Source: Bacteroidota bacterium (lineage in GTDB: Bacteria; Bacteroidota; Bacteroidia; UKL13-3). Taken from it: a DNA stretch of 47,078 bases. A program made the translations under genes and the position numbers. Location: contig JAUYMZ010000454.1 of assembly GCA_030699355.1 (NCBI GenBank), forward strand, positions 1 through 47,078. The letters run 5' to 3'. This document shows, one piece after another, positions 1-17,632 of the stretch. Each line of letters opens with the position of its first letter. Position 1 is the stretch's first letter. The notes beneath the pieces were generated by a model. That model did not search any database and was not told the DNA's origin. It saw only the letters and a list, made by a program, of their open reading frames with translations.

Positions 1-1
1 C

Positions 2-1027
2 TTTGTTTGTCCACTCCCTTATTAATTGGTAGTACTTGCCAGATTTGTACTCATCACAAGCTACAGAGCCTTCTTTGCCATACAGGCCATCCGATTGGCT
101 TGCCCAGCCTGTTTCGCCAATATGAACGGGTTTATCTATGCCCAAAGATTGCATGTACTTAACTACGCTTAAGTATTGATTTTTGGCATAATAAAGTGAA
201 CGCAGCATCAGTGAGTCAATCATGACTTCTTTTGTGAATGTTGTTTCATTGGGTTTCACGCCCCAAAATACAGGATTGTAATGGGTATCATGCATTGGGT
301 AGGTATGTATAGAAACATAATCTACGGCTTGGTATAGTTTCTTTAAATCATCCACATGATACAAGGAATCGCCACCACCCCACGAGGCAAAATTATCTGA
401 AGAGCTAATCCAAAGCTCTTTAGGCAAAGCTCCTGTTGCTTTTAAATCTTGTAAATGCTTCACCCATTTTAAAATAATCTTAGGTTCAACATAATAACTT
501 GTTGCCCATTTTACCATGGCTTCATTGCCAACGGATATAATTTTTACAATATCCGCGTATTCGTTTGCTAGTTGAACCGCTCTTGCTATCTCAGTGGTAT
601 TTGCTTCTAAGTTTTCTTGCGTATGATTAGGTTCAGCCAGAGACCAAGCGTTTGCGCAATCTATCCAAGCCCCTAGCATTACATACATTTCAAAGCTTTG
701 CTGTTCTTTTTTTAAGCTTGTTATGGCTTTTAATAGGGTATCTATTTCAGTAAGTTTTGTGTTGTAGGTGCGGAGTATTTTAATACCCATTGCATGCATT
801 AGTTTTAAGTCGTCTTTAACTTGAGCTAGGCTTGGAACGATATCGCGTGTGTTGGTTCTATAACCACCGTAACAAATGGCCAAATAGTTTGAATCGCCTA
901 AAATTTGAGCCGCAGTTTTGGTATTGGCCGCTTGTGTTGCTTGCGTATTTTCGTTTCGAAAACTACATGAGTTTAGAATAATTGCTATTAATCCTACTAA
1001 AAAGTATTTTAAACCCAGCTTCAACAT
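2..1027 (-). CDS. GH17-like beta-1,3-glucanase/transglycosylase lipoprotein; the 3' end runs off the left edge of the window
   Basis: Not in the ORF track because no stop lies in the window. My translation from the ATG at 1025-1027 (minus) gives MLKLGLKYFLVGLIAIILNSCSF..., a lipoprotein box. It continues through ...ISVGNEAMVKW... (acid/base NE) and ...KPVHIGETGWASQSDG..., a near match to the GH17 E-[ST]-G-W-[PA]-[STN] nucleophile signature. Its start is 4 nt from the stop of the upstream gene. Confidence 0.7.
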   Translation of the reverse strand, partial: MLKLGLKYFLVGLIAIILNSCSFRNENTQATQAANTKTAAQILGDSNYLAICYGGYRTNTRDIVPSLAQVKDDLKLMHAMGIKILRTYNTKLTEIDTLLKAITSLKKEQQSFEMYVMLGAWIDCANAWSLAEPNHTQENLEANTTEIARAVQLANEYADIVKIISVGNEAMVKWATSYYVEPKIILKWVKHLQDLKATGALPKELWISSSDNFASWGGGDSLYHVDDLKKLYQAVDYVSIHTYPMHDTHYNPVFWGVKPNETTFTKEVMIDSLMLRSLYYAKNQYLSVVKYMQSLGIDKPVHIGETGWASQSDGLYGKEGSVACDEYKSGKYYQLIREWTNK

Positions 1028-1031
1028 GCCT

Positions 1032-4000
1032 TTATTTTAAGATAGACTTATTAATATGTACGGTAATTTTTGCTACTTCGCCTGTTCTGCAAAATATATC
1101 GGTACTTGTTGCCTTATCTAAAGAAAGGGATGGTTGTTGAATGATGGTGCCATCTTTCTTTTCAATTTCAAGGGAGTTTTCTTCAGATAAATTATAAACA
1201 ACCGGAATCTGACAATACGTAAAACATATGGAGCCTATTGGTGGCGCAAAGGTTTTATGTTCTTTATGGATAGTTACATAATGAAAGGTGCGTTCTTGTG
1301 TTGTAAACTCATCTTTGCGCAATAAGCAAGGATTAAAATACAAGCAACCTTCTGCCACAAAAACACCCAACTCGCCAAATCTGCTAAGTATATCTTCCTT
1401 TACCTGACCCGTCATGCCGGGTTGCTGCGCACCTTTGTTTGCAGGTGTGTGCGAGTATGGGTCGGTTGGGAAGGCACCATACAACGAGGGCGATTTATGT
1501 ACACCCACCCCAGCATTTATTTCGTAATAATGTTCCAATAATTTACCTGTTACTTCGGCAGATTCGTTTGCTGTTATCGCTTGTAAACATACTTCTTGAA
1601 CCGCCAATTGCAATTTAGAAACCATGTGCCAATAGATAGAACCAAGGCCTTCGTATCCATAAAATGTACCCGAACGTCCGGTAAATGATTTATGGTCGAA
1701 CACGGTTTCAAATAGGTCTAAAAACGACTGTTTTTCTTCCTGTATTAAGTCGCCATACTTTTGAGTATCTAAATTGGCAATGGCCTCACTTAAATCAGCC
1801 GCATTTTTAAAGATACCATTAAAATGATACACTCCTGTAATATCAAGCTCTACCAAAGTTTTGTCGCCCTTATCAAGCATCATTTTTATAAGCTTCGATT
1901 GTGCTATAGCAGATGCAGGTATCTTATTTTTCTCTAAAAATTTAGGTAGTTTTTTATTTGGGTACAACAAATAGCTATACTGGTCGGGACGAAACAACGC
2001 GCTTTGCTTCATGCTGTCTAGCAAATGTAAGGCATCTTTAGGAGATAAGTAACCAGAGCTTAGCACGGCTACTTGTCCTTCAAGCATTTCACTGAGGTAA
2101 GAAATCGCTACTTCATTTGAGTTTTGAAAGCTCATTAAGTTGTAAGAGTGATACATATTATCAGGGCGCTTATTGGCGGCAATTGTGTGCTCTGTAAACG
2201 CTATGCTTAGCTTCACAAATGCTTTTAATCGGCGGTACGAAATCGTTCTTTTCTCTCCCCAAAAAGAGAGTTTGTAAATGTGTTTTCTGTATTCGCTTCC
2301 TGCTTCACCTAAACTATCTAGTATTACTTTTCTTTGTTCATTGCTAATTTCGCCCTGCAATAAGTGCGCATTTTCTTCTAAAGTAGCATGAATCTTTTTA
2401 AAGAATATAATCAATTCGTTTGATAACTCTACGCGCTCGTCCTTGGTTTGTTCAATTAAGGTATCAAAAAACACCAAGAATCTTCTTAAATAGCAAAGGG
2501 TAACTACCGAAACGCCATTCCCAACCAAGGCATTGTTTGCATCGTTCCATTCTGGCCTTTGCGTATTCATCCAAATACCTGCGCCCGGAATAAAATTGGA
2601 GAGTTTAGCCAAAACGCTGGCGAGTATTTTTTCTATGAAGTTTACGGTATAAATCTTTTCGTTTTGAGCCAATAAAAGCGTTGCGTCTGAACCTATTGCT
2701 TCTCTGTTTTTCCTAATATGAGCATCCAATTCCTCATCAAACTCAATGGTATCTTTGGCGTTTTTAACAATCTCTTGGTAAGGCTTTATTTTGTAAGGTA
2801 CATTGGCATACACAAATTGTTCTAACTTAAATTGGCTACTCAACTGACCAGGAAAGTATTTCTCATTAATTTCTAATAATTTAAGCAAGTAAATAATCTG
2901 ATGATCGCCCCAATAACCAATATACGACCAAGGATTGTCTGGTTCAACCGTTTCCCAATCAAATCCGCCTTTTGTTAAGCGATAAGGATTGTATCCTTCA
3001 AAAGTAGTAGCATTTAAAAACTTATGAATCATGCTGCGGGTAAAGCCAGGAAAAGAAATAGATAAGGCTTCCCAATTTTGAAAAATATCTCTCCAATTTC
3101 CTTCGTAATCCAAGATTTTCGAATGGTCTACCGCACTGCGGGTATTAATAGAAAATTTATTCCAAGGCCTGCTCGGGTCGCCATGCCTTCTGCTAAACTT
3201 TAAAGGCAAGTATTCTGTGCAAAGCCTTTTAAAATCATTGTCGTTGGTTTGGGCATATAAGGCTTCTAGTTCAAAAACAGTAAATGTTTCTCCTAAGCTT
3301 TCTAATAATTGCTTGTGGTTTTCGTATACTGTTTTGTTGGCATTGGCTATAGATTTTATTAGGTCCCATTTTTCAATTTGGTAATTAAAATCAAAAATCC
3401 CGCCACGCATAATATTGAAGAGTGTATTGGCAAAATGCCTGGTATCTCTGTAAACATCCTTCGACAATTGAATGCCATCTGCTGAGGCATTTAATTCCAT
3501 TAAGCGGTCTGAACCAAGCGCTATATCATCTGTTACCTGCTTATTGAGGTTTTTGTTGTTTTTTATTTCATGTATAAGTTTTACAACATTGGCCTGACTT
3601 TGATTTACATCTGCCACAATCATCCATTGTTGTTGGCTACCTGCTGCCAAGGAGATTTTTTTATTAACGAAGTAAGCACCACGTTCTGCTTTTACATCTA
3701 ACTCTTGCACAATCGGAAGTCCTTTTCTAAAGGCATCGAGCTGCATGGAAGAAATTAAGTGTAAGGGATTATCCAATCCAAGAGACCAAGCTATATTGGC
3801 CATCAAGGCTTCACTTGGTTCAGCCTTATCTACAATAATGGCACTTAGGGCAAAAATACCCAAGCCAGAATCTAGGTCTAGTTCATTGCGTTTGTATGCA
3901 TCAACTAAATTGCTTGTGGCGTTTTGCAAATCACTGCTTACCCCATCGGGCATAATGTTTTGGATGCCATCTAAAATGTTTATAGTAAGCTCTCGGCCAC

Positions 4001-4484
4001 TATTGTTTAGCAACCACGATTTGCGCACAAAACCATATAGGTTACTCGAGTTCCATTCGTACCTAAATGTAAGTTCAAATTGGTGGTTTATTTCCTCGAA
4101 AATAATTTTGTTTCCAATGGCATTTTTATAAATATTCCGGGTAATGCGCTGTTGGGTAGCGTTGCGTTCAGAAAATGGTTCCCAGATATGGGTTTGCTCA
4201 TTTTGAATAACCTGAAAAATACTTTTAGAGCCAGTAGTATCGTATGCCTCTGTAATTTTATCTGCCGTGTAATAAGGAAACAAGGCGTATTCTGCGCTTT
4301 TGCGCCCCGCCGAAACGCCTCCATTGCTGGCAATGAACATCCAATGGTGAGAGTCGCTCACAATGCTCATAAAAAACGGACGAATTTGATCGTGATTGGA
4401 AATACAAAAGAAATTTTCGCCTTCTATTTTTAATCTTTTTATGGCAACTAAAGATGCTTCTTCAACTTGTTTTTGACCTGACAT
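1032..4484 (-). CDS. Large cytoplasmic (alpha/alpha)6-type glycoside phosphorylase-like protein; candidate GH94-clan (GH149/GH161-like) beta-1,3-glucan/oligosaccharide phosphorylase
   Basis: 1150-aa ORF with no signal peptide. It contains TQRPEWNDANNALVGNG (Asp648 codon at 2541-2543), resembling the catalytic W-N-D segment of GH94-type phosphorylases. Size and the GH16/GH17 neighbours fit what is reported for bacterial GH149 genes. The ORF is secure; the function is inferred. Confidence 0.55.
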   Translation of the reverse strand: MSGQKQVEEASLVAIKRLKIEGENFFCISNHDQIRPFFMSIVSDSHHWMFIASNGGVSAGRKSAEYALFPYYTADKITEAYDTTGSKSIFQVIQNEQTHIWEPFSERNATQQRITRNIYKNAIGNKIIFEEINHQFELTFRYEWNSSNLYGFVRKSWLLNNSGRELTINILDGIQNIMPDGVSSDLQNATSNLVDAYKRNELDLDSGLGIFALSAIIVDKAEPSEALMANIAWSLGLDNPLHLISSMQLDAFRKGLPIVQELDVKAERGAYFVNKKISLAAGSQQQWMIVADVNQSQANVVKLIHEIKNNKNLNKQVTDDIALGSDRLMELNASADGIQLSKDVYRDTRHFANTLFNIMRGGIFDFNYQIEKWDLIKSIANANKTVYENHKQLLESLGETFTVFELEALYAQTNDNDFKRLCTEYLPLKFSRRHGDPSRPWNKFSINTRSAVDHSKILDYEGNWRDIFQNWEALSISFPGFTRSMIHKFLNATTFEGYNPYRLTKGGFDWETVEPDNPWSYIGYWGDHQIIYLLKLLEINEKYFPGQLSSQFKLEQFVYANVPYKIKPYQEIVKNAKDTIEFDEELDAHIRKNREAIGSDATLLLAQNEKIYTVNFIEKILASVLAKLSNFIPGAGIWMNTQRPEWNDANNALVGNGVSVVTLCYLRRFLVFFDTLIEQTKDERVELSNELIIFFKKIHATLEENAHLLQGEISNEQRKVILDSLGEAGSEYRKHIYKLSFWGEKRTISYRRLKAFVKLSIAFTEHTIAANKRPDNMYHSYNLMSFQNSNEVAISYLSEMLEGQVAVLSSGYLSPKDALHLLDSMKQSALFRPDQYSYLLYPNKKLPKFLEKNKIPASAIAQSKLIKMMLDKGDKTLVELDITGVYHFNGIFKNAADLSEAIANLDTQKYGDLIQEEKQSFLDLFETVFDHKSFTGRSGTFYGYEGLGSIYWHMVSKLQLAVQEVCLQAITANESAEVTGKLLEHYYEINAGVGVHKSPSLYGAFPTDPYSHTPANKGAQQPGMTGQVKEDILSRFGELGVFVAEGCLYFNPCLLRKDEFTTQERTFHYVTIHKEHKTFAPPIGSICFTYCQIPVVYNLSEENSLEIEKKDGTIIQQPSLSLDKATSTDIFCRTGEVAKITVHINKSILK

Positions 4485-4540
4485 TATACTTATCTATTCC
4501 TAATTATTTTATAAACTAAATTATTCCCAAGGGTTATTGT

Positions 4541-5365
4541 TTATTTTTCCTTGTAAGCCCTTACATAATCAATTGTCATAGCACCCGGAAAAGGGGTAAA
4601 TTGGTTAGGTGGGCCAACAAAACTTCCGCCTACTGCTATGTTCATGATAATAAAAAATGGCTGATTAAATACCCACTCTCCGGGTACTTCCAAAGGTGTA
4701 ATTCTTCTATACAAATAACCGTCTACAAAGAAGTCTATTTTGCTTTCATTCCATTCAACAGCATATACATGAAAATCATTGTCGAACCTATCATTCTGAA
4801 GCGTGAATGGGGTGGTAATAGCTTGCCCTCCAGAATAACCCGGACCATGAATTGAGCCATAGGTAATATTTGAGAATTTACCCTTTTGTTCCATGATGTC
4901 AATTTCTCCGCATTGTGGCCAACTTACTGTTGGAATATTATTTCCCAACATCCAAAATGCCGGCCAAATACCAGAACCCGTCGGCGTTTTAATGCGCGCT
5001 TCTACCTTTCCAAACTGATGGGTAAATAAGCCCTGCGTTTTTACACGCGCCGAAGTGTAACTTCCATTATTGCTTTTTAATGCTGTGATAACCAAATTTC
5101 CCTTACCATCTAAAGAAACATTCGCTGGATTTTTGGTGTAGGTTTGCAATTCGTTGTTTCCCCAACCGTTCTGACCAGTGCCTAAATCATAAGTCCATTT
5201 TTCGGCATTGGGTAAGGTGGCAGAATCACCATCAAATTCATCACTCCAAACCAATTCAAAATTTCTTTCTGGTAACTTCTGTATGGGTTCAACCTTACAA
5301 CTTGCCATAACCGCTGCTATGGCGGCAATTAATATAACTGTATTCGAATTTTTCATTGACTTCAT
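4541..5365 (-). CDS. GH16 endo-beta-1,3-glucanase (laminarinase) lipoprotein
   Basis: Signal peptide plus lipobox (AAVMASC). GH16 catalytic motif E-I-D-I-M-E at aa 154-159 (nt 4889-4906), with WPAFWMLG just upstream. Confidence 0.9.
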   Translation of the reverse strand: MKSMKNSNTVILIAAIAAVMASCKVEPIQKLPERNFELVWSDEFDGDSATLPNAEKWTYDLGTGQNGWGNNELQTYTKNPANVSLDGKGNLVITALKSNNGSYTSARVKTQGLFTHQFGKVEARIKTPTGSGIWPAFWMLGNNIPTVSWPQCGEIDIMEQKGKFSNITYGSIHGPGYSGGQAITTPFTLQNDRFDNDFHVYAVEWNESKIDFFVDGYLYRRITPLEVPGEWVFNQPFFIIMNIAVGGSFVGPPNQFTPFPGAMTIDYVRAYKEK

Positions 5366-5388
5366 TTTAAAAAATTTAATGCTAATTA

Positions 5389-6810
5389 CTATTTATAAAA
5401 ATAAATATTATCTAAGATAAAATTGGGTCCGCCTGTAATAATAATGGCGCCAATATTGCCTTTTTGATTTAAAATACCTCCATTTAATGGAATATCAAAA
5501 GATTTCCAAACGCCACTTTGAAAGCCCGTTAAATTGGTTCTTACATCTCTATCATCTCCCATCGGATTGCCTGTATTTACATCTGTTTCTATGGTTTTGT
5601 TTGAACCTATATCTCTTATTTGAATACCAATGCTTGTGTTCGCATTTTCTACATAGGCATCTATGTGTATAAATCCAAGCGTAGAAGCATCTATAGGGTT
5701 TTCAGTGAACATAATACCTGTATAATTATTGTTGCTGTATTGTGCCACCTTGCCGGTGCTTGTATTTAAAATTTCTGTTATGGTTGTTGAGCCTCCAAAA
5801 TTGGGGGTAAAATTGCTAACAGTGGCATCGGTATAAGCATCGCTAAAAACAGATTTTACATCGGCTGCTGGTCTTGTTGGTACAGGCGAACCAACCAAGT
5901 CTCCTTTACATTCTACTGTTAATTTTCCTTTAGCAGCAACACCATTTACAGTGGCTGTAATATCAGCGGTACCCACAGCCAATGAGGTTACTACACCCGT
6001 TTCATTCACAGAGGCTACCGTTGGGTTAGAGCTGATAAAGTTATAATAAGCAGGGGTAGAAATTACGCTCACATCTTGCCCGGTTACCAAGTTATATACA
6101 TGGGTTAAACCTGTTATATTGATGGTTGAACCAATAAATGATTTAACAATACTTGTTTGTCCGTTTAAAATATTAGTGCTTGGTTTTCCTACTGTGCCAA
6201 GTTTTTCGAATTTAATTTCATCAAACCAAAGGGTATATCCTAAACCATTGGTTGCTTGTGTGCCTGCCGCAAACCAAAATACGCCTCTTTCATTTACTAA
6301 TTTTGATGGGTCTGGTATGGGAACAATAACTTTAGACCAACCTGTTCCCACATTGGTATTTTGAACCGTAACTTGGTATTTGTCGCCCAGGTAATCTATA
6401 CCAAAACCTACATCACCTAATATGGTTCCGGTAGAACCTTTAACGTAGAATGTAAGTGCGTCAAATCCGCTTAAGTTTCTGCCTGCACCATCTATTCTAA
6501 AAATAGCACCGGCGTAAGTGCCTGTTGGGTCTGTATTGTTGGGCACATCAATTCTAATAGAAGCATCACTTTTATAGCCTTCTTTCATATCCACTGAAAA
6601 CACATCTGGTTTTGCATCGGCAAATGGGAAATAAAAGTTTGAACCTAAACCAATAAAGTTATCGGTAAAAATTTCGCCTGTGCTTGAAAATTTAGGTAAA
6701 ACAGCGTCGTCAGATAATTTTCTTTCGCACCCTAATTCAAAAATAAGAATGAAAGCTAACAAACTTAAATGGAAGGGTTTTTTATTTAAAATATTCATCG
6801 TTTTCTTCAT
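5389..6810 (-). CDS. Surface glycan-binding lipoprotein: CBM-like beta-sandwich, Big_2 Ig-like domain, second CBM-like domain
   Basis: Lipobox (FELGCE). The N-terminal module ends ...GYTLWFDEIKFEKLG. The Big_2-like segment is ISSNPTVASVNETGVVTSLAVGTADITATVNGVAAKGKLTV. The C-terminal module begins SVFSDAYTDATVSNFTPNFGG, typical of glycan-binding modules in flavobacterial glucan loci. No catalytic motif seen. Confidence 0.6.
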   Translation of the reverse strand: MKKTMNILNKKPFHLSLLAFILIFELGCERKLSDDAVLPKFSSTGEIFTDNFIGLGSNFYFPFADAKPDVFSVDMKEGYKSDASIRIDVPNNTDPTGTYAGAIFRIDGAGRNLSGFDALTFYVKGSTGTILGDVGFGIDYLGDKYQVTVQNTNVGTGWSKVIVPIPDPSKLVNERGVFWFAAGTQATNGLGYTLWFDEIKFEKLGTVGKPSTNILNGQTSIVKSFIGSTINITGLTHVYNLVTGQDVSVISTPAYYNFISSNPTVASVNETGVVTSLAVGTADITATVNGVAAKGKLTVECKGDLVGSPVPTRPAADVKSVFSDAYTDATVSNFTPNFGGSTTITEILNTSTGKVAQYSNNNYTGIMFTENPIDASTLGFIHIDAYVENANTSIGIQIRDIGSNKTIETDVNTGNPMGDDRDVRTNLTGFQSGVWKSFDIPLNGGILNQKGNIGAIIITGGPNFILDNIYFYK

Positions 6811-6828
6811 TAAAAAGTAAGCATGTTA

Positions 6829-9800
6829 TTAATTATTGATATTTATTTGGGTATACACTCTAAATTCCCATTCGTTTCCATTCGGGAATCCAATCACATT
6901 TGGATCAGGAACCATTATGCCACTAGAGTTTAACATAAAAGCTGGAGCATATCTATTAGAGTATCTATCCAATGTGCGGAAAGTTCCTCTAAATCCTAGC
7001 TTAGTTCCTGGCATCAAGAACCAATCTGGTTTGCCAATTTCTATAGACCAATCTCCAATAAGTTGAAGTGGGAAGGTTTGGTTAAAATCTCGGTGATAGT
7101 CAAACGGACCCCAATCGTCAATTCTTACAATGGTCATCAGTTTCATTTTTTTGTAAATGGTTCTAACGTCAACGCCATATCTATTAATGGTTCTGGCATC
7201 ACTTCCGTTTGCTTGTCCGTTACCAAAATAAATGTTTCCAATAACACCAAATTCTGGGCTAATTTTTGAAACCAATCTGGTGTTAACTTCCCATAAATCT
7301 TGCGCTGGAGCTGAACCTGGGAATACAAAGGTGGTTCTACCATTTCCTAAAATACCAATGGCTGCGTCTTGCACGGTAGGTAAGTGGCGATACACAAAAC
7401 CTGCACTCATGGCAAACTTGGCATCTTCCATTCTATCATTGTCCCATTCGTACATCCAAGTAGCAGGTGTTGGGTCAAACGTAAGTAATAATTCTCCACC
7501 AACTGTTTCTCTATTTCCTCTTACAGAAAAGGGATCATCCAAAATGTTTCTTGGCCTAGCAGGTGCTGCAAAATTTGGGCCTATGGGTCCTACCAATGGT
7601 CTTTGATATAGAAAATTTGGTGCTATCTGAAATTTGCCAATGTTATAGGTAACTCCTGTTAAGGCATTGTACATGTTTCCGCTTCCTACATCTTTTAATA
7701 CCCAACCTGTAAAAGTTTTTGTTTGATCCACTCCTCCGTTGGCTACCAAACCCATATAAGAGGCTAGTCCGTACCAACGTATTGAACCAATAGAATAGGT
7801 AAGTTTTACTTTTCCGCCAAGGTTATCGGTAGTTTGTATTTTATCTTCATATACGGTGTTGTTTTCAACCATTTGAAAGGCTCTTCCAACAAGGGGTTGC
7901 CCGCCCCAAATGCCACCTACATCAAAGGTAAGTTTTTCCAACTTTTTGGCTACCACAAAGGTTAATCTCCTTGTTTTAGGCACGGGTACAGCAAACGAAC
8001 TTTGTAAATTGGTTCGTTGTACAATATCTTCATGGAAGATACCGGTTAGGTCTAAACCAGCTACTTTTTTACTGTACTTTACCAATACTGCTGGGTTTGC
8101 TCCCCACCATAATTCTGGGCCAAATGCTACTTTTAAACCTTTGAGTTTTCTTTTGGCTTCCATTTCAAAACCAAAGGGTGCATTACCGTTATAAATATCT
8201 ATGTTCGGACCATAATTTGCTTCTGGATATAGGCCAAAAAAATCGCCTTCATATCCCCAATGGTAATGGCCTGTTCTGTAAAAGCCGGTTAATTTAAATT
8301 CTTTTGCATCCCAACTGTAACTGGCTCTATATAATTGTAACCTGTTGTTATCTGAAATTTGTACCGGTCCATTGGGTGTGGCCACAGTAATTGGGCGACC
8401 TCTATTTTCGTAGAATATTTCGTCTATTGGATTGGTGGCTACATTACCTAAAAGGTTAAACTGAACGTTTGCCCGCATGTTTGGAGCCGGATTAGCGGTA
8501 ACGCCAATATTAAATGACTGCATGTGGTCAAAACCTTGCGCGTTGGGAAAGCCTGCGGCATTGGCAGGGTTGGAAGCTACAGGCGTGGAGGTTAAACTTC
8601 CACCCGTTTGGTAGGTGGTGAAATTAGCTTGTAGGTTGCTTAAATATAATTTGCCTTTATCTTTTGATTCTAATACTGCCTTATCACCCCTTGCCTTTAA
8701 TGCAAAATCGGCATTAGAAATACCATTAAAAAAGGTATTCATGGCTGCCATGTTTCCAGTGTATGGGTTATACCTATGTACATATTGCAAGGCATAATAA
8801 GCAGCTCTAGGATATAACTCGTAATTTCCTCTTTCGTTGGTTTGTCCTTTGGCGCATATTCCAAACCACTCTTCGTTCATGTTGTTTTCGCCGTTCACAA
8901 AATCGTTTTTGTAACCCCCGTTCGACCACGATGCGGTTGCGTCGTGAATATCTAGGTTTACCGTTTGGCCCGTTTTCCACCAGCCATCGCTAAATTGAAA
9001 GGTAAAACCGCCTAAACTATTGTCGTTATTGCCCATTCCGGCAGCGTTTTCGTAAATTCCTTTCCAATTGCTTACCAATACTTTTGCTTGATATTCTTGG
9101 TCTTCTTGGTTGGCAACCGTGTTATAGGCATCTGCTCCAAATTCGGTTAATAAAACCGGCATGTTTAAGTCCTTCTTTACTTTATCAAATAAATCGGTAA
9201 AGGTAGCACCACGGTATACGTTAATACCCAAAATATCTACGTCTTTACATTCTTTGGCAATGATATTTGAAAACAGTAAGTCGCCATTACATATGGCAAT
9301 AGGGTGATTGTTGCTTATTTGCTTTAATTCTTTAGCAGCATCATTAAAAAGCTTGTACAAATGCATAGCATCTTTGGTAGAGTTACGGTCGGCAAAGGGA
9401 ATATTTTCTGTTTCGGCACCTCTCCAAAATAGTCCGTAATTGTTCTCATTACCCAATAAAAAAAGCAAGATGCCGGGGGTTTCTTTGTATTGGGCTACCA
9501 TCTCTTTGGTTTCATTCAATAATAATTCACGTACTAGCGGACTAGAATAATCTGTAATAGCTTCCCACTTGCCTTTTACGGTTAATCCATATCTACCAAA
9601 AGAGTGGTTGAGCATGGTGTAAATACCGTAATTTTCGTATATATATTTAACCCATTTTGCTGGCACACCTGTATATTGGCGGATGGCATTCACCCCCATG
9701 TTTTTGAGCAGCGACATTTCATTATCAAGGGCAGCCATAATTACATCATCAGATTGATTCCATAAACTGTAATTGTAATTGGTTCCAACCGGAAAATAAT

Positions 9801-9948
9801 CCCAGTTCATTCCGTAAATGAAAGTTTCTTTTCCGTTTACCAAAAGTTTAAACCCGCTACCAGCTTTGGAAACTAGCACTTTATCGCCCTGAGCGAGCGT
9901 AAGTAATGGTGCAAGAAGTAAAAGACATTGAAGTAGAATTTTTCTCAT
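6829..9948 (-). CDS. Secreted clan GH-A (GH2/GH5/GH158-like) TIM-barrel glycosidase domain fused to a roughly 600-aa C-terminal beta-barrel-like domain
   Basis: Signal peptide (LLAPLLTLAQG). Acid/base LLGNENNY (E168 codon at 9445-9447) and nucleophile VLLTEFGAD (E269 codon at 9142-9144), about 100 aa apart as in clan GH-A. From about aa 430 to the end there are many amphipathic, aromatic-rich strand-like segments, such as RRLTFVVAKKLEKLTFDVGGIWGG, GGKVKLTYSIGSIRWYGLASY, NRYGVDVRTIYKKMKLMTIVRIDDWG and NEWEFRVYTQININ. Confidence 0.6.
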   Translation of the reverse strand: MRKILLQCLLLLAPLLTLAQGDKVLVSKAGSGFKLLVNGKETFIYGMNWDYFPVGTNYNYSLWNQSDDVIMAALDNEMSLLKNMGVNAIRQYTGVPAKWVKYIYENYGIYTMLNHSFGRYGLTVKGKWEAITDYSSPLVRELLLNETKEMVAQYKETPGILLFLLGNENNYGLFWRGAETENIPFADRNSTKDAMHLYKLFNDAAKELKQISNNHPIAICNGDLLFSNIIAKECKDVDILGINVYRGATFTDLFDKVKKDLNMPVLLTEFGADAYNTVANQEDQEYQAKVLVSNWKGIYENAAGMGNNDNSLGGFTFQFSDGWWKTGQTVNLDIHDATASWSNGGYKNDFVNGENNMNEEWFGICAKGQTNERGNYELYPRAAYYALQYVHRYNPYTGNMAAMNTFFNGISNADFALKARGDKAVLESKDKGKLYLSNLQANFTTYQTGGSLTSTPVASNPANAAGFPNAQGFDHMQSFNIGVTANPAPNMRANVQFNLLGNVATNPIDEIFYENRGRPITVATPNGPVQISDNNRLQLYRASYSWDAKEFKLTGFYRTGHYHWGYEGDFFGLYPEANYGPNIDIYNGNAPFGFEMEAKRKLKGLKVAFGPELWWGANPAVLVKYSKKVAGLDLTGIFHEDIVQRTNLQSSFAVPVPKTRRLTFVVAKKLEKLTFDVGGIWGGQPLVGRAFQMVENNTVYEDKIQTTDNLGGKVKLTYSIGSIRWYGLASYMGLVANGGVDQTKTFTGWVLKDVGSGNMYNALTGVTYNIGKFQIAPNFLYQRPLVGPIGPNFAAPARPRNILDDPFSVRGNRETVGGELLLTFDPTPATWMYEWDNDRMEDAKFAMSAGFVYRHLPTVQDAAIGILGNGRTTFVFPGSAPAQDLWEVNTRLVSKISPEFGVIGNIYFGNGQANGSDARTINRYGVDVRTIYKKMKLMTIVRIDDWGPFDYHRDFNQTFPLQLIGDWSIEIGKPDWFLMPGTKLGFRGTFRTLDRYSNRYAPAFMLNSSGIMVPDPNVIGFPNGNEWEFRVYTQININN

Positions 9949-10097
9949 TTTGTATTAATTATTTTGTTTATAAACTTAATTTTTTTCGAAACGTTATGCT
10001 TGGTTTTGGGGCTTGGATTTTTCTGTTTTTTGGCTAATTTTTTTAATTATGGTAAAATTTACAATAACCAAATTAAAGAATAAAATTAGTAACAATC

Positions 10098-10105: not shown

Positions 10106-10392
10106 TTTTTTGATTAAGAAAAAATATTGCCGAGAAAAGCTGTTTTGGGTGACCTAGATAAAGGCAAAAGAATGAGCTACAAAAACCCATATCAAATATT
10201 TGAGGCCAAATCTGGACTTGTGTAATTTATACCTGAGCCAATGTAACAACAGAACAAAAGTGCAACAATCAGATATGCTTCTTAATTTCACATTTCTGTA
10301 TATAAAAAGTATCCAATAATACATATACTTTATCCTATTTTTTACTTACTACCTGCAAGGATTAAAGGTTTGGTTCAAGCCGAACCAACTTT

Positions 10393-11409
10393 TTAGTTAA
10401 TGTTTGCTATGCGCTTATCTATCATTTTAAACCACAAAGGCGGTATGGCAGCTACAAAGAACATGCCCGCGTAGCCGCTGGGCAATTGCCTGCCTTGCTC
10501 ATAACTTTGAAGGGTGTGGTAGGGTTTAGCCGCATGGTAATGGTGGTCGGCATGACGACTCAAATCTATTAATACAAATCTACTTACGGGCACATCGCTT
10601 TGCCAGCTATGCCATTCTGTAACCCGCTCATTTTCTTTTCGGGTTAGTCCGTAATGTTCTATGTAATTAACATATTCTAGCAGAAAATTGGCCGCTACGC
10701 AATGTAATACAAAACCCAAAAGAGCTATTGGTCCGAACCAAATGATAATAAAGGTATCGAATAAGAGGTGCAGAATTACTTGCCTCAGCACATAATGTTG
10801 CAGGGTCCAAATGGATTTATTTGCTTTTTTCAGGCGTTCAGATTCTAATTTCCAAGCGCCCTTAATCTGACCCAAACCACTTCTTAAAAAGAAAGCATAC
10901 AAGTTTTCTCCTTTTTTAGCGGTGGAAGTATCTTTGTTGGTTCCTACCCATTTGTGATGCACTTGCAGGTGCTCTATATAAAAATAAAAATTGCCTGCGC
11001 TAAAGAGTAGCCATTTTCCTAAGAAGCGCTTTAACTGCGATTTACGGTGTATCAATTCATGCGCCACCACAATAGCAGCAGAGCCAGAATTTACACCCAT
11101 GCTTATGGCTGCTATGGCTATCCATATTCCGTTTAGCAGGTGTGTGTGTACAGCGTAAAAATAACTTATGATACAGAGTAGTTGGGCGGGTATGTGTAAG
11201 TATAAAATCAGGTTGGGCAGTTTATCTGTGGTTGCACTGGTGGTGTTATTCCTGATGGGTTTTAAAAGCCATTCTGCTGCCGCTAAAATACCCAATGAAT
11301 AGATGGCGTTTAAAGCAGACCATATTTCTCCTTGCATATTGCCATATATTACGGCAATACTTGGCGTTAAACTTAAAAGATAGGCTAGATTTCTGTAACT
11401 TGCTTTCAT
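10393..11409 (-). CDS. alkB: AlkB-type integral-membrane di-iron alkane 1-monooxygenase / fatty-acid-desaturase superfamily protein
   Basis: Four AlkB hallmark boxes are present: HELIHR, EHLQVHH, NYIEHYGL (AlkB-specific) and LSRHADHHYH. Multiple hydrophobic TM segments. Confidence 0.75.
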   Translation of the reverse strand: MKASYRNLAYLLSLTPSIAVIYGNMQGEIWSALNAIYSLGILAAAEWLLKPIRNNTTSATTDKLPNLILYLHIPAQLLCIISYFYAVHTHLLNGIWIAIAAISMGVNSGSAAIVVAHELIHRKSQLKRFLGKWLLFSAGNFYFYIEHLQVHHKWVGTNKDTSTAKKGENLYAFFLRSGLGQIKGAWKLESERLKKANKSIWTLQHYVLRQVILHLLFDTFIIIWFGPIALLGFVLHCVAANFLLEYVNYIEHYGLTRKENERVTEWHSWQSDVPVSRFVLIDLSRHADHHYHAAKPYHTLQSYEQGRQLPSGYAGMFFVAAIPPLWFKMIDKRIANIN

Positions 11410-11642
11410 AATTATATATCAAAGCTATGTTTTATTTTTATCTTATTCAATAGTTCTGTATTGTGCTTATTTTTTTGTTTTTACATTGGTTTATTCTTGT
11501 TTGTTTATTATTGTGAGAGTGCCCATCAAGGCAAAAGCAAAATATTTGCATGTTTTGGAGGGTGACTTATAAGAATAATCTAGCAATAGTTTAGAAGTAG
11601 CGCTTCAATTATTGCTTCATTTTTTTAACTAGGATATGGAAA

Positions 11643-12200
11643 CTACTTACCTCCTCTTATGGCACTCGCTCTAAGCGGTTTTATATTAAAAAGTGTAGCT
11701 AAACACCATTCTAAAATTTGAAAAAACCGAATAAATTCAAGTACCGGGTTAAGGTAATTGGTAATGATACAATAATTCATACTGTAGGGCGATTGATGGT
11801 GTTGGCCGTGGTGTTTTCTTGATTGAAGAAGTCCTATACTTTGTAAATAACAAATTAACCTGCCATTTTCTTTGTCGGATTGATGCGCTTTCCTGTGTAT
11901 TTCATTTGATTGAGAAGCCAATGCAATACAGGCTGCATAAAAGAAACTGAACCAACCAAAAAGAAGTGGTATGGCAATTAAAATAATACCTGTTATAATG
12001 CTCGTGTTATTTCTTTGCCAATAGTTTCCTTTTAAGAATGCCCTTGGCTCATGGTGATGAAGTAAATTGGGTTGAACAATATGTTTACCCAAAACTGGCC
12101 AATTGGGATTGCCATAGGTGTCTTCCCACCAATGAAATAATCCTGATAGGAAGTCGGCACATAATAAAATTGCCAAAAATTGAAATGGTAGTAATAACAT
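11643..12200 (-). CDS. CarF/TMEM189 (PEDS1)-type lipid desaturase domain protein
   Basis: 185-aa membrane protein with His clusters FHWWEDTYG, LLHHHEP, EIHRKAHQ and RKHHGQHHQSPY. This matches the histidine-rich pattern of the CarF/TMEM189 lipid desaturase domain. Confidence 0.6.
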   Translation of the reverse strand: MLLLPFQFLAILLCADFLSGLFHWWEDTYGNPNWPVLGKHIVQPNLLHHHEPRAFLKGNYWQRNNTSIITGIILIAIPLLFGWFSFFYAACIALASQSNEIHRKAHQSDKENGRLICYLQSIGLLQSRKHHGQHHQSPYSMNYCIITNYLNPVLEFIRFFQILEWCLATLFNIKPLRASAIRGGK

Positions 12201-17500: not shown

Positions 17501-17632
17501 ATCTGGAAATGCTTCAATGGGCATATTTCTAAATGCCACAATACCTGCAATCACCAAAACGCCTACCCAAAAGAAAGTAAAGGCTCTATTTTTTAGTGAA
17601 AATGCGATTATGTTCTTTATAAATTTGTTCAC
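14531..17632 (-). CDS. czcA: CusA/CzcA-family heavy-metal efflux RND inner-membrane pump
   Basis: 1033 aa with a 12-TM RND layout. The N-terminus (IIAFSLKNRAFTFFWVGVLVIAGIVAFRNMPIEAFPDVTNTQIIIVT) is typical of the HME-RND family. GTG start. It is the last gene of the TolC, adaptor and pump series. Confidence 0.9.
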   Translation of the reverse strand: MNKFIKNIIAFSLKNRAFTFFWVGVLVIAGIVAFRNMPIEAFPDVTNTQIIIVTEWNGRSAEEIERFVTTPVEIAMNSVQKKTSVRSITMFGLSVIKIIFEDGVEDFFARQQVNNLLRNVSLPDDVTPDVQPPYGPTGEVFRYTLKSPNRDSRELLTIQNWTIDRQLRSVPGVADLVAFGGQEKTYEVSVDPNRLSKYNITPLQVYDAVNQSNINVGGDIIEKNGQAYVVRGVGLLGSISDIENIIIDEAGGNPILVKNVADVFESAMPRVGQVGLNENDDVVEGIVVMRKGENPKEVLGRIKEKIAELNERILPKDVKMETFYDRDNLMNYTTTTVMHNMLEGILFVTVIVFLFMADWRTTFIVSIIIPLSLLFAFLCLKLKGMSANLLSLGAVDFGIIIDGAVVMVEGIFVTLDHLAHKKGMAAYNKLAKGQIIKKTGVEMGKAIFFSKLIIITALLPIFAFQKVEGKMFSPLAYTLGFALLGALIFTLTLVPVLSHILLNKNVKEKHNPFVNFWNRIVENGFAWTFRNKRKSLIVTISIIVITFFSAKFLGTEFLPQLNEGALWVEAKFPMSQSLPETVEKTAILRKELQKFPEVNGVLSQVGRSNDGTDPSGFYYVQMQVNLKHKDEWKRKITMDDLVREMDDSLTKYQGIGYNYSQPIIDNVAESVAGINASNAVKIYGDDLEKLDEIANKVIKQIENVEGIKDVGILRNVGQPEVSVILDRERMAAYGVKVADAQAVLEMAFGGKTATQKFEGEKKFDVRVRYNKDYRKNERDISNLKVPTIQGHKIPLKEIASIKKVTGPAFIYRDNTKRFIGVKFSVRDRDLGSTIAEAQKNVENKIELPQGYSIGWTGEFENQVRATGTLGQMVPISLAGIFILLFILFGNIKDSLLVLTNVPFAIIGGIMALHITGTNFGISGGVGFIALFGICIQNGVILISEFHKNLKENLGLNGAIMEAVKVRTRPVVMTALMASIGLLPAALSTGIGSESQKPLAIVIIGGLITATILTLLVFPIIFWLFNRTKHEMIK

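What the first reader, a model, noticed from the sequence alone, without database searches (positions are those of the whole stretch)
1..9948. Five-gene beta-1,3-glucan (laminarin) operon with no SusC/SusD pair in view
Five same-strand genes are separated by only 18, 23, 56 and 4 nt. In order they encode a GH-A::barrel fusion, a CBM/Big_2 lipoprotein, a GH16 laminarinase lipoprotein, a cytoplasmic GH94-clan phosphorylase-like protein and a GH17 lipoprotein. The established Bacteroidota model for glycan use is a PUL built around a SusC TonB-dependent transporter and a SusD lipoprotein. Neither appears in these 10 kb, and upstream of the first gene there is only 444 bp of non-coding DNA followed by an unrelated alkB-like gene. 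The locus therefore looks like a Sus-independent design: surface endo-glucanases, a possible dedicated barrel, then cytoplasmic phosphorolysis. No regulator (HTCS, SusR, LacI or AraC type) is visible either. Caveat: the locus is cut by the left window edge, so a susC/susD pair, a transporter or GH3/GH30 genes could lie downstream of GH17.
Basis: partly seen in the sequence, partly recalled or inferred. Interest (0 to 1): 0.65.

Follow-up and report, generated by a model that had tools for sequence, protein, structure and literature searches.

The report
Laminarin operon with enzyme-barrel fusion
This is a real beta-1,3-glucan (laminarin-type) breakdown operon that lacks the usual SusC/SusD uptake pair; its first gene fuses a glucanase to a large outer-membrane barrel, which may provide a different way to take the sugar in.

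Summary
Five minus-strand genes lie at 1-9948 with gaps of 18, 23, 56 and 4 nt, preceded by 444 nt of non-coding DNA. [quoted passage not shown]

The 47 kb window contains no SusC, SusD or regulator. In relatives the operon continues with GH30 and an MFS::GH17 fusion, not SusC/SusD. Of the 63 closest species-level loci with at least 7 kb of upstream sequence, 62 have no TonB-dependent transporter and none has a SusD.

The locus type is already published: Formosa "PUL 2", Muricauda, and "CAZyme clusters lacking susCD". There the first gene is labelled GH2 or hypothetical. I found no description of it as an enzyme-barrel fusion.

Full-length G1 is followed directly by g2 in 128 of 129 loci. Barrel-less versions of the enzyme occur only in loci that also carry SusC/SusD or a full-length G1. 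The family also occurs in Myxococcota and Gemmatimonadota. In Formosa the inferred homologue is induced about 200-fold by laminarin and is enriched in the membrane fraction.

Best reading: a TonB-independent outer-membrane entry and processing module. This is inferred from comparison, not demonstrated.

The parts
10372..10386 (.). GC-rich hairpin (GGTTCAAGCCGAACC) just after the stop of the upstream alkB-like gene. It is the probable terminator that separates that gene from the operon.
   Evidence: Inference from position only.
10044..10069 (-). Conserved palindromic block GGTTATTGTAAATTTTACCATAATTA, centred 108 nt upstream of the G1 start codon. Candidate operator for the operon.
   Evidence: The block matches at 20-26 of 26 positions, at -91 to -132, in nine related loci. 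Control coding regions reach at most 16 of 26. It occurs only in relatives that lack an adjacent BguR-type regulator.
6829..9948 (-). G1, 1039 aa. Signal peptide (residues 1-20, no lipobox), GH158-like (beta/alpha)8 domain (residues about 24-395, DNA 8764-9879), two linker helices (396-433), and a roughly 24-strand outer-membrane beta-barrel (residues 434-1039, DNA 6832-8649).
   Evidence: Pfam gives only a weak GH2_C hit. A profile of the family hits GH158 structures 6PAL and 9ORO at 1e-10. AlphaFold gives pLDDT 85.4 and pTM 0.72. Foldseek ranks GH158 and GH157 first for the N-terminal domain and only outer-membrane barrels for the C-terminal domain. The catalytic motifs GNE(168)NNYG and TE(269)FG are present.
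5389..6810 (-). g2, 473 aa lipoprotein (lipobox LGC, then an acidic stretch C-E-R-K-L-S-D-D). It has a Big_2 domain between two CBM-like beta-sandwich domains and is a probable surface glycan-binding partner of G1.
   Evidence: It lies directly downstream of full-length G1 in 128 of 129 loci.
4541..5365 (-). GH16 endo-beta-1,3-glucanase (laminarinase), a lipoprotein with the catalytic motif EIDIME.
   Evidence: Pfam GH16 at 3.8e-25. PDB laminarinases 3ATG and 2HYK at 4e-77 and 2e-75.
1032..4484 (-). GH149 beta-1,3-glucan/oligosaccharide phosphorylase, with no signal peptide (cytoplasmic).
   Evidence: NCBIfam NF058639 at 1746.6 bits against a cut-off of 1150. PDB 6HQ6 (Pro_7066) at 1622 bits over residues 14-1148.
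1..1027 (-). GH17 endo-beta-1,3-glucanase lipoprotein. Only the first 342 of about 423 residues are present; the gene is cut by the window edge.
   Evidence: PDB 6FCG (Formosa FbGH17A) at 2e-129. 68.5% identical to the 423-aa GH17 of L002.

Best explanation
The locus is the promoter-proximal part of a beta-1,3-glucan (laminarin or chrysolaminarin) catabolic operon. It is of the published 'variant 1/B' type, in the subtype that has no SusC/SusD pair.

Proposed route, with the basis for each step:
1. The surface lipoproteins g2 (CBM-bearing) and GH16 (endo-laminarinase) bind and cut the glucan. Enzyme identities are shown; surface location is inferred.
2. The fragments cross the outer membrane through the roughly 24-strand barrel of G1 without TonB energy. 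G1's own GH158-like endo-glucanase domain, probably on the periplasmic face, cuts them and so keeps the inward gradient. This step is inferred.
3. Periplasmic GH17, and GH30 encoded just beyond the window edge, trim and debranch the fragments. This rests on homology to characterised Formosa enzymes.
4. An MFS::GH17 fusion imports the oligosaccharides. It is seen only in relatives.
5. Cytoplasmic GH149 converts them to glucose-1-phosphate and glucose. Enzyme identity is shown.

On this reading the G1-g2 pair fills the role that SusC-SusD fills in ordinary PULs.
For: **Enzyme identities:**

**Operon layout:** gaps of 4-56 nt, no terminator-like hairpin in any intergenic gap, and a hairpin after the upstream gene.

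**G1 fold:** AlphaFold pLDDT 85.4. GH158 and GH157 beta-1,3-glucanases are the best structural matches for the N-terminal domain. The barrel-only model matches only outer-membrane barrels in the top 50 (TonB-dependent transporters, MOMP, chitoporin, LptD, ushers, maltoporin). Both catalytic Glu residues are present.

**G1 is not a SusC and g2 is not a SusD:** no Plug, TonB_dep_Rec or SusD domains.

**Conservation:** the barrel is almost as conserved as the enzyme domain, 60% against 66% identity to the Formosa-type homologue.

**Gene context:**
- G1-g2-GH16 is essentially invariant. g2 follows full-length G1 in 76 of 77 and 52 of 52 loci.
- 62 of the 63 closest species-level loci with at least 7 kb of upstream sequence have no TonB-dependent transporter, and none has a SusD.
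- The enzyme domain without a barrel occurs with SusC/SusD in 7 of 8 informative loci. The eighth has a full-length G1, so no locus lacks both kinds of barrel.
- In the two non-Bacteroidota-type loci examined (one high-GC, L085), G1 sits with GH16, a GH149-like phosphorylase and an ABC importer, with no TonB-dependent transporter. Source names place full-length homologues in Myxococcota and Gemmatimonadota.

**Experimental data on the inferred Formosa B homologue FORMB_24670** (same gene order and genus; its sequence was not aligned here): it is 196- and 264-fold higher on laminarin in the membrane proteome. At 1.19 %riBAQ it exceeds both laminarin-PUL TonB-dependent receptors (0.46 and 0.45). 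Its membrane-to-extracellular ratio resembles theirs (Unfried 2018, Table S3, PMC6246565).
Against: - Nothing shows directly that the barrel forms a channel or passes sugar.
- I could not read model coordinates, so the side of the membrane on which the GH domain sits is unresolved. The pattern of short turns fits a periplasmic N-terminus, but a linker threaded through the lumen cannot be excluded.
- Ten marine loci carry SusC-SusD-SGBP directly upstream of full-length G1-g2, so the two systems are not mutually exclusive.
- Formosa B has two SusC/SusD laminarin PULs elsewhere, and the same could be true of this genome, which I cannot see.
- GH30 and MFS::GH17 are inferred from relatives, not seen in the window.
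Confidence: 0.55

Rival explanations
1. Anchor only. The G1 barrel merely fixes or displays the GH158-like glucanase at the cell surface, like an autotransporter. Oligosaccharides enter through SusC/SusD pairs or general porins encoded elsewhere, so the locus is an accessory CAZyme cluster that depends on Sus in trans.
For: - Ten marine loci have SusC/SusD directly upstream of G1-g2.
- Formosa B expresses two SusC/SusD laminarin PULs together with its G1 locus.
- Kappelmann 2018 (PMC6298971) raised the idea that some laminarin PULs act as helper modules.
- The characterised GH158 enzyme BuGH158 is described in its paper's title as a cell-surface glycosidase.
- An OprB-family porin gene lies 8 kb away in the window.
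Against: - About 24 strands is far more than an anchor needs, and the same operon anchors GH16, g2 and GH17 with simple lipid anchors.
- The barrel, including its long loops, is conserved about as strongly as the catalytic domain.
- Barrel-less copies appear only where a SusC or a full-length G1 is in the locus.
- 62 of 63 close loci have no transporter in cis.
- The two non-Bacteroidota-type loci examined pair G1 with an ABC importer and show no other outer-membrane component.
Confidence: 0.3
2. Truncated ordinary PUL. A susC/susD pair belonging to this operon lies just beyond the left edge of the window.
For: The window, and an independent 6 kb contig that encodes the identical GH149 protein (L001), both end inside the GH17 gene, so nothing downstream can be seen directly.
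Against: - In the closest relatives (L002 at 89% G1 identity; L003, L005-L010) the next genes are GH30 and MFS::GH17.
- None of about 160 related loci has a SusC or SusD hit downstream of G1.
- Where SusC/SusD is present, it lies upstream of G1.
Confidence: 0.04
3. Biosynthesis or export. The barrel with its periplasmic glycosidase exports or remodels a self-made beta-1,3-glucan, as in PgaA/PgaB or BcsC/BcsZ. GH149 would run in the synthetic direction and GH17 would act as a transglycosylase.
For: GH149 phosphorolysis is reversible (PMC5827456). MlGH17B from the Muricauda cluster is a transglycosylase (PMC13188888). That exopolysaccharide systems pair porins with periplasmic hydrolases is my own knowledge.
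Against: - The locus has no glycosyltransferase or synthase.
- It does have surface CBM and endo-laminarinase lipoproteins and an MFS importer.
- The Formosa locus is induced by external laminarin and not by glucose.
- BguR-type activators of laminarin use sit beside G1 in 42 loci (preprint 10.64898/2026.01.10.698779).
Confidence: 0.03

Closest known systems
Formosa sp. Hel1_33_131 laminarin 'PUL 2' (FORMB_24670-24750; Unfried et al. 2018, PMC6246565) and the Muricauda lutaonensis laminarin cluster (PMC13188888)
   Same: Same gene order: a 'GH2'/hypothetical protein (inferred to be G1), a hypothetical protein (inferred g2), GH16, GH149, GH17A, GH30 and MFS::GH17B, with no TonB-dependent receptor or SusD listed in that PUL. 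The Formosa-type G1 is 61% identical to the window protein. The GH17 matches FbGH17A at 2e-129. The Formosa locus is laminarin-induced.
   Different: The window's relatives come from pond, lake and wastewater MAGs rather than marine Flavobacteriaceae. The window has no PKD/CBM4_9 protein between GH16 and GH149 and no adjacent LuxR/BguR regulator. Neither paper describes the first gene as an outer-membrane barrel fusion.
Canonical SusC/SusD laminarin PULs (for example Formosa agariphila BguR-SusC-SusD-..., Christiangramia forsetii, and the Bacteroides uniformis beta-1,3-glucan locus with BuGH158)
   Same: Same substrate and the same downstream enzyme set (GH16_3, GH17, GH30_1, GH149, GH158-type). 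The same BguR-type regulator sits immediately upstream of the first outer-membrane gene. The first two genes are about 1000 aa and about 480 aa, a barrel protein and a glycan-binding lipoprotein.
   Different: G1 has no Plug, TonB-box region or CarboxypepD_reg domain, and g2 has no SusD fold domains. The barrel protein carries a glycosidase domain instead of a plug, which implies TonB-independent passage.
GH158 endo-beta-1,3-glucanases (BuGH158, PDB 6PAL; GH158(Pro), PDB 9ORO)
   Same: Best sequence-profile match (1e-10) and best Foldseek match (E 2e-15 to 1e-13). Clan GH-A TIM barrel with the NE acid/base and TEFG nucleophile motifs aligned.
   Different: Only 14-15% identity in the structural alignments. 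The sequence match covers about 190 residues. The solved GH158 chains are about 400-425 residues and match only G1's N-terminal domain; none has a barrel. Published annotations of this gene position vary (GH2, hypothetical), and the 'GH0' of Sidhu 2023 may be the barrel-less form.
Sugar-specific porins (maltoporin LamB, chitoporin ChiP, OprB)
   Same: The proposed way of working: TonB-independent, substrate-selective diffusion of oligosaccharides. Chitoporin and maltoporin are among the Foldseek hits of the barrel.
   Different: TM-scores are only 0.25-0.42. G1 has about 24 strands; these porins have 16-18 and are usually trimeric (my own knowledge). None carries a fused enzyme.
Enzyme-barrel fusions of type V secretion (for example the EstA esterase autotransporter and PlpD). 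This comparison rests on my own knowledge and was not tested here.
   Same: An N-terminal globular enzyme, a helical linker and a C-terminal outer-membrane barrel in one polypeptide.
   Different: Those barrels have 12-16 strands and serve to export or anchor the passenger domain. G1's barrel is about twice that size and no autotransporter domain is detected.
The MFS::GH17 transporter-CAZyme fusion of the same operon type (FbGH17B, Unfried 2018)
   Same: The same design idea, a membrane conduit fused to a beta-1,3-glucanase, at the inner membrane of the same pathway.
   Different: A different membrane, fold and enzyme family, and it lies beyond the window edge.

Membership tests
Canonical Bacteroidota PUL | A SusC-like TonB-dependent transporter gene (Plug + TonB_dep_Rec barrel, usually with CarboxypepD_reg) in the locus | tested here: not met
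   No such domains in any ORF of at least 120 aa in the 47 kb window. BLAST with marine SusC sequences finds one weak hit in 84 related loci (L081, a generic OMP_b-brl_3 protein).
Canonical Bacteroidota PUL | An adjacent SusD-like lipoprotein gene (PF07980, PF12741, PF12771 or PF14322) | tested here: not met
   g2 has only Big_2. No SusD hit in the window or in the 84 closest loci. The positive control worked: marine loci L091 and L094 gave clear SusC and SusD hits.
Variant 1/B laminarin utilisation locus (Kappelmann 2018; Unfried 2018; Sidhu 2023) | Co-located GH16 endo-laminarinase, GH17 and GH149 | tested here: met
Variant 1/B laminarin utilisation locus (Kappelmann 2018; Unfried 2018; Sidhu 2023) | GH30_1 debranching enzyme and an MFS::GH17 fusion downstream | not testable with these tools
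   These genes would lie beyond the left window edge. They are present directly after GH17 in L002, L003 and most relatives.
Variant 1/B laminarin utilisation locus (Kappelmann 2018; Unfried 2018; Sidhu 2023) | Induction by laminarin | not testable with these tools
   Shown only for the Formosa B locus (Table S3).
GH149 beta-1,3-glucan phosphorylase | Full-length match above the curated family threshold and to the characterised enzyme Pro_7066 | tested here: met
   NF058639 at 1746.6 bits against a cut-off of 1150, covering positions 5-1134 of the 1134-position profile. PDB 6HQ6 at 1622 bits.
GH158 (for the G1 N-terminal domain) | Clan GH-A (beta/alpha)8 fold with catalytic Glu residues after strands 4 and 7 | tested here: met
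   The AlphaFold model has alternating strand and helix elements over residues 24-395. The NE(168) and TE(269)FG motifs align with GH158.
GH158 (for the G1 N-terminal domain) | Sequence similarity at the level CAZy requires for family membership | tested here: inconclusive
   The profile E-value is 1e-10 but covers only about 190 residues, with 14-15% structural identity. dbCAN/CAZy models were not available. Published annotations of this gene position include GH2 and hypothetical.
TonB-dependent transporter (for the G1 barrel) | An N-terminal plug domain inside a 22-strand barrel, with a TonB box | tested here: not met
   No Plug or TonB_dep_Rec hit. The N-terminal domain is a 370-residue TIM barrel. 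The resemblance to TonB-dependent transporter barrels is generic (TM-score 0.32-0.36, rmsd about 14 A).
Outer-membrane beta-barrel protein (generic) | Sec signal peptide, long antiparallel amphipathic strands that close into a barrel, and a C-terminal strand with an alternating hydrophobic pattern | tested here: met
   Signal peptide MRKILLQCLLLLAPLLTLAQ. About 24 strands of 7-17 residues in two independent models. All top-50 Foldseek hits are outer-membrane barrels. The final strand reads EWEFRVYTQININN, and distant homologues end in F, W, Y, L or I.
Type V autotransporter | A 12-16-strand translocator barrel with an autotransporter or POTRA domain signature | tested here: not met
   No such Pfam domain, and the strand count is about 24.

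The most novel reading that the evidence does not exclude
G1-g2 is a previously unrecognised, TonB-independent, enzyme-coupled outer-membrane glycan entry system. A roughly 24-strand barrel is fused to a GH158-like endo-beta-1,3-glucanase and paired with a CBM lipoprotein. It does the job of SusC-SusD for laminarin, is interchangeable with or added to SusC/SusD in different lineages, and is shared by Bacteroidota, Myxococcota and Gemmatimonadota. If so, part of environmental laminarin turnover bypasses the SusC/SusD route that is now used as its marker.
Probability: 0.45. Interest if true: 0.8.

Novelty: new variant of a known kind. Interest (0 to 1): 0.6.

Why it matters
Laminarin is one of the largest fluxes of organic carbon in the ocean. 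Its use by Bacteroidota is the textbook case of SusC/SusD-based 'selfish' uptake, and SusC/SusD expression is used as a field proxy for glycan use.

A susCD-less version of the main laminarin locus has been recorded several times without an explanation of how the sugar crosses the outer membrane. Its most abundant laminarin-induced membrane protein in Formosa is labelled 'GH2' or 'hypothetical'.

Recognising that protein as an enzyme::outer-membrane-barrel fusion gives a concrete, testable answer. The supporting pattern is that it is strictly paired with a CBM lipoprotein, that it is found in at least 597 of the 600 matched stretches in the species-representative genome collection, and that barrel-less forms were found only in loci that also carry SusC/SusD or a full-length G1.

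It also means that surveys which count only SusC/SusD pairs would miss these loci.

Tried and rejected
**G1 as a misread SusC, g2 as a misread SusD.** Their sizes (1039 and 473 aa) and positions fit. Rejected: no Plug, TonB_dep_Rec or SusD domains and a TIM-barrel N-terminus.

**Extending the contig.**
- Exact-sequence look-ups of G1 and GH16 found nothing.
- The only contig that encodes the identical GH149 protein (L001) also ends inside GH17.
- The source contig therefore could not be extended.

**Relating the barrel to DUF5916.** A CBM9/DUF5916 protein neighbours a G1 homologue in L089. hhalign gave a probability of 0.4%, so there is no relationship. L089's 571-aa 'short' G1 looks like a frameshift artefact from a 4x-coverage contig.

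**Motif searches upstream of G1.**
- A k-mer count and a strict regular expression across all loci found only AT-rich noise.
- The palindrome appeared only after aligning the closest relatives.

**Other scans of the window.**
- The sigma-70 promoter scan gave 27 sites against 34.5 expected. It is uninformative, and Bacteroidota promoters differ from that consensus anyway.
- Rfam found nothing in the window.

**Structure prediction limits.**
- Model coordinates are not exposed, so barrel closure, pore size and the side on which the GH domain sits could not be measured.

**Literature.** Four full-text searches found no description of a glycosidase-barrel fusion in laminarin loci. The library holds open-access papers and preprints only, so this is not proof that none exists.

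Full report
**1. The observation**

The window carries five consecutive minus-strand genes: 6829-9948 (1039 aa), 5389-6810 (473 aa), 4541-5365 (274 aa), 1032-4484 (1150 aa), and one that starts at 1027 and runs off the left edge with 342 codons visible. The gaps are 18, 23, 56 and 4 nt, as reported. 444 nt of non-coding DNA separate the first gene from a FA_desaturase (alkB-like) gene at 10393-11409. A GC-rich hairpin at 10372-10386 sits directly after that gene's stop codon. No terminator-like hairpin falls in any of the four intergenic gaps. The five genes are therefore most simply a single transcription unit that begins at gene 1. This is inferred from layout, not measured.

**2. What the genes are**

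- **Gene 4** is a GH149 beta-1,3-glucan phosphorylase. It scores 1746.6 bits against the NCBIfam equivalog NF058639 (cut-off 1150) and 1622 bits, full length, against the crystallised enzyme Pro_7066 (PDB 6HQ6). It has no signal peptide.
- **Gene 3** is a GH16 laminarinase. Pfam gives 3.8e-25 and PDB beta-1,3-glucanases give 4e-77. It has a lipobox and the motif EIDIME.
- **Gene 5** is a GH17 lipoprotein, 2e-129 to Formosa FbGH17A (PDB 6FCG).
- **Gene 2 (g2)** is a lipoprotein with a central Big_2 domain and two flanking domains that weakly resemble CBM11 and CBM30. In homologues the lipid-anchor cysteine is followed by an acidic stretch (C-E-R-x-L-S-D-D and similar). From my own knowledge this resembles the Bacteroidota signal for export of lipoproteins to the cell surface.

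**3. Gene 1 (G1)**

Pfam sees only a borderline GH2 TIM-barrel hit over residues 71-278 and nothing over the C-terminal 600 residues. I built an alignment of 40 homologues with 25-89% identity to the query and ran AlphaFold2 on it. The model has pLDDT 85.4 and pTM 0.72. Its parts are:

- a signal peptide without a lipobox;
- a (beta/alpha)8 domain over residues 24-395;
- two linker helices, 400-429;
- about 24 long antiparallel strands from 434 to the C-terminus.

Foldseek against the PDB puts GH158 endo-beta-1,3-glucanases first (9P26, 9ORO and BuGH158 6PAL, E from 2e-15 to 1e-13). GH157 comes next, then GH2. A sequence profile of the family also hits 6PAL and 9ORO at 1e-10. The clan GH-A catalytic motifs are present, GNE(168)NNYG and TE(269)FG, and each Glu is kept in 35 of 40 diverse homologues.

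A separate model of residues 396-1039 has pLDDT 75.5 and pTM 0.73. Its top 50 PDB matches are all outer-membrane barrels: TonB-dependent transporters, MOMP, chitoporin, LptD, OccK porins, the FimD usher, MtrB and maltoporin. The TM-scores are only 0.2-0.4. The C-terminal domain is therefore an outer-membrane barrel with no close solved relative.

It is not a SusC, because it has no Plug, TonB_dep_Rec or CarboxypepD_reg domain.

**4. Is SusC/SusD really absent?**

None of the large ORFs in the 47 kb window has SusC, SusD or BguR-type domains. The rest of the window encodes an RND efflux system with an OprB-family porin, two-component systems, acetyl-CoA synthetase, a 3482-aa T9SS-secreted protein and others.

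The left-edge caveat can be addressed with relatives. The G1 family is very large:

- more than 5400 proteins in the first search, the best 120 of them 73-99% identical;
- 597 confirmed hits among the first 600 pattern matches in the species-representative genome collection, spread over Chitinophagales, Cytophagales, Flavobacteriales, Bacteroidales, Saprospirales and Kapaibacteria.

In the nearest long contigs (L002 at 89% identity, and L003) the operon reads G1-g2-GH16-GH149-GH17-GH30-MFS::GH17.

I clustered all ORFs of 84 related loci plus the window. g2 is present in 83 of 85, GH16 in 78, GH149 in 63 and GH30 in 51. A Reg_prop/Y_Y_Y/GerE regulator (the BguR type of preprint 10.64898/2026.01.10.698779) is present in 42. 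No conserved SusC- or SusD-sized family appears. The large unclustered neighbours of 850 aa or more that were not identifiable by eye were scanned against Pfam and none is a SusC. A BLAST with genuine marine SusC and SusD sequences found one weak hit, to a generic outer-membrane protein in L081.

Of the 63 loci with at least 7 kb of upstream sequence, 62 have no TonB-dependent transporter and none has a SusD. No locus has a SusC or SusD hit downstream of G1.

**5. Marine loci give a natural comparison**

A 440-aa stand-alone homologue of the G1 enzyme domain (56% identity) sits in front of GH149-GH17-GH30-MFS in a low-GC contig, L088. I used it to scan the metagenome collection. This returned 80 marine loci, which fall into three layouts (Pfam confirmation of SusC and SusD):

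| Layout | Gene order | Count |
|---|---|---|
| I | REG-SusC-SusD-SGBP-GH16-[enzyme domain alone, 433-440 aa]-GH149-... | 7 informative loci with SusC/SusD |
| II | REG-SusC-SusD-SGBP-[full-length G1]-g2-GH16-GH149-... | 10 loci |
| III | full-length G1-g2-GH16-..., no SusC/SusD, as in the window | 18 informative marine loci |

Four further loci have an anti-sigma factor plus an STN-type TonB-dependent transporter, but no SusD, upstream of G1.

Two patterns stand out.

- Full-length G1 is followed immediately by g2 in 76 of 77 and 52 of 52 loci. The stand-alone enzyme is followed by GH149 instead.
- The stand-alone enzyme has SusC/SusD upstream in 7 of 8 informative loci. The eighth (L095) also carries a full-length G1. 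No locus therefore lacks both kinds of barrel.

The barrel is nearly as conserved as the enzyme domain: 60% against 66% identity to the Formosa-type protein, and 89% against 91% to L002. From my own knowledge that is unusual for an outer-membrane barrel with long loops.

**6. Beyond Bacteroidota**

Full-length homologues at 35-47% identity occur in a 68% GC contig (L085) and in L087. There G1 sits with GH16, a GH149 or GH149-like phosphorylase, GH1, a g2-like protein and an ABC importer. No TonB-dependent transporter is visible. Close relatives of the L085 protein are named by their sources as Archangium, Polyangiaceae, Myxococcota, 'Deltaproteobacteria' and Gemmatimonadota. The fusion therefore travels with beta-1,3-glucan genes in phyla where, from my own knowledge, SusC/SusD pairs are not expected.

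**7. What is already published**

- Kuhaudomlarp et al. 2018 (PMC5827456) noted that Bacteroidetes GH149 genes lie in PULs and in 'CAZyme clusters lacking susCD-like pairs'.
- Unfried et al. 2018 (PMC6246565) described Formosa B 'PUL 2'. Their Table S3 lists it as FORMB_24670 (hypothetical, 'GH2 family' elsewhere), 24680 (hypothetical), GH16, a PKD protein, GH149, GH17A, GH30, an MFS transporter fused to GH17B (FORMB_24740), and a further GH17 (FORMB_24750). No TonB-dependent receptor or SusD is listed in that PUL.
- In the same table FORMB_24670 is 196-fold higher on laminarin than on glucose, and 264-fold higher than the control, in the membrane proteome. At 1.19 %riBAQ it is more abundant than either laminarin-PUL TonB-dependent receptor (0.46 and 0.45). 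Like them it is more abundant in the membrane fraction than in the extracellular fraction.
- That FORMB_24670 is a G1 orthologue is an inference. It rests on identical gene order, the 'GH2' label, and the fact that the marine G1 proteins of that layout cluster at 90% identity with 'glycosidase [Formosa sp.]'. I did not align the sequence itself.
- The 2026 Muricauda lutaonensis paper (PMC13188888) shows the same cluster with a 'GH2 beta-glycosidase' first gene and a LuxR regulator.
- Sidhu et al. 2023 (PMC10108472) list GH149-GH0-GH17-GH16_3-GH30_1 'variant 1' PULs and one NS4-clade PUL without susCD.
- None of these papers, and none of four full-text searches, describes the first gene as an outer-membrane barrel fusion or proposes how the susCD-less loci import glucan.

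**8. Most likely mechanism**

*Shown.* The enzyme identities, the barrel fold prediction, the strict G1-g2-GH16 linkage, the absence of SusC/SusD in cis, and the pattern that every locus has at least one of the two barrels.

*Inferred.*

- g2 and GH16 act at the surface.
- Fragments pass through the G1 barrel without TonB energy.
- G1's own endo-glucanase domain cuts them. It is probably periplasmic: the 2-6-residue turns fall between strand pairs 2/3, 4/5, 6/7 and so on, which puts the start of strand 1 at the periplasmic face as in other outer-membrane proteins.
- GH17 and GH30 then trim the fragments, MFS::GH17 imports them, and GH149 phosphorolyses them.

The operon would then hold two conduit-enzyme fusions, one in each membrane.

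I put this at about 0.55. The main rival, at about 0.3, is that the barrel only anchors or displays the enzyme and uptake uses SusC/SusD encoded elsewhere. Layout II and the two other Formosa B laminarin PULs make that plausible. Against it are the size and conservation of the barrel, the lipid anchors used by the neighbouring genes, and the loci in other phyla. A SusC/SusD pair hidden beyond the left edge (0.04) and a biosynthetic or export role (0.03) are unlikely.

**9. Regulation**

The window has no adjacent regulator. Nine loci (the window and L003-L010) all lack an adjacent BguR. All nine share a palindromic block TTATgGTAAAnnnnTACCATAAT about 90-130 nt upstream of G1; in the window it lies at 10044-10069. 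The close relatives that do have BguR next to G1 (L002, L014) lack the block. This suggests that the regulator was swapped in this clade, and that the regulator itself lies elsewhere or beyond the window edge.

**10. Verdict**

The locus is a new member of a published locus type, so the missing SusC/SusD pair is not new in itself. What appears to be unrecognised is that the first gene is a widespread, highly conserved glucanase::outer-membrane-barrel fusion tied to a CBM lipoprotein, and that it can stand in for, or sit alongside, SusC/SusD. That makes the question of how susCD-less laminarin loci import their substrate directly testable. Interest 0.6.

Noticed in passing
window 10044-10069 (minus strand); L003-L010 at -91 to -132 from the G1 start: Conserved palindromic block GGTTATnGTAAATTTTACCATAATTA upstream of G1. 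It occurs only in the nine loci that lack an adjacent BguR-type regulator, and the close relatives that have BguR (L002, L014) lack it. It looks like the operator of a different dimeric regulator, which points to a regulator swap within one operon type.
   Followed up: partly
L090-L169 (marine metagenome loci): The laminarin locus comes in three layouts: SusC/SusD plus the stand-alone enzyme domain (433-440 aa; possibly the 'GH0' of Sidhu 2023); SusC/SusD plus full-length G1-g2; and G1-g2 alone. The stand-alone form is followed by GH149 and never by g2.
   Followed up: yes
L141, L150, L155, L167 (about 4-10 kb in each locus): A 197-aa ORF on the opposite strand (seen in L141; not annotated), a roughly 390-aa protein taken from its position to be an anti-sigma factor, and an STN-domain TonB-dependent transporter lie directly upstream of G1-g2, with no SusD. 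This may be a trans-envelope signalling version of the same operon.
   Followed up: partly
window 18064-19416 (minus strand): An OprB-family 'carbohydrate-selective porin' gene sits inside an RND efflux cluster (OEP 20590-21843, HlyD/CusB-like 19507-20586, AcrB 14531-17632), next to an OmpR-type two-component system (21924-23956). This is an odd place for a sugar porin, and it is only 8 kb from the glucan operon.
   Followed up: no
window 10393-12200 (minus strand): Two membrane desaturase-type genes lie in tandem directly upstream of the operon: a FA_desaturase/alkB-like gene (338 aa) and a CarF-like Lipid_desat gene (185 aa; 88.5 bits against the plasmanylethanolamine desaturase model, far below its cut-off of 500).
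   Followed up: no
window 28053-38501 (plus strand): A 3482-aa ORF whose only recognisable domain is a T9SS C-terminal sorting signal. A second large ORF (from 44716 to the right edge, DUF7948 plus SBBP repeats) runs off the window.
   Followed up: no
window 42323-42412 (minus strand): ARAGORN calls a 90-nt tRNA-Arg(GCG) inside the histidine-kinase ORF at 41968-43725, and Rfam finds no tRNA there. It is probably a false positive.
   Followed up: no
L001, and the window's left edge: An independent 6 kb assembly contig (SRR13727540) that encodes the identical GH149 protein also ends after codon 342 of the GH17 gene, the same point as the window. This suggests a repeat or strain-variable breakpoint inside GH17.
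   Followed up: no
L085 (GC 0.68) and L087: In loci that do not look like Bacteroidota, G1 homologues sit with GH1, GH16, a GH149 or a 1035-aa GH149-like protein, ROK or LacI regulators and ABC importers. In L087 a CBM9 protein directly precedes G1 and a g2-like protein follows it.
   Followed up: partly
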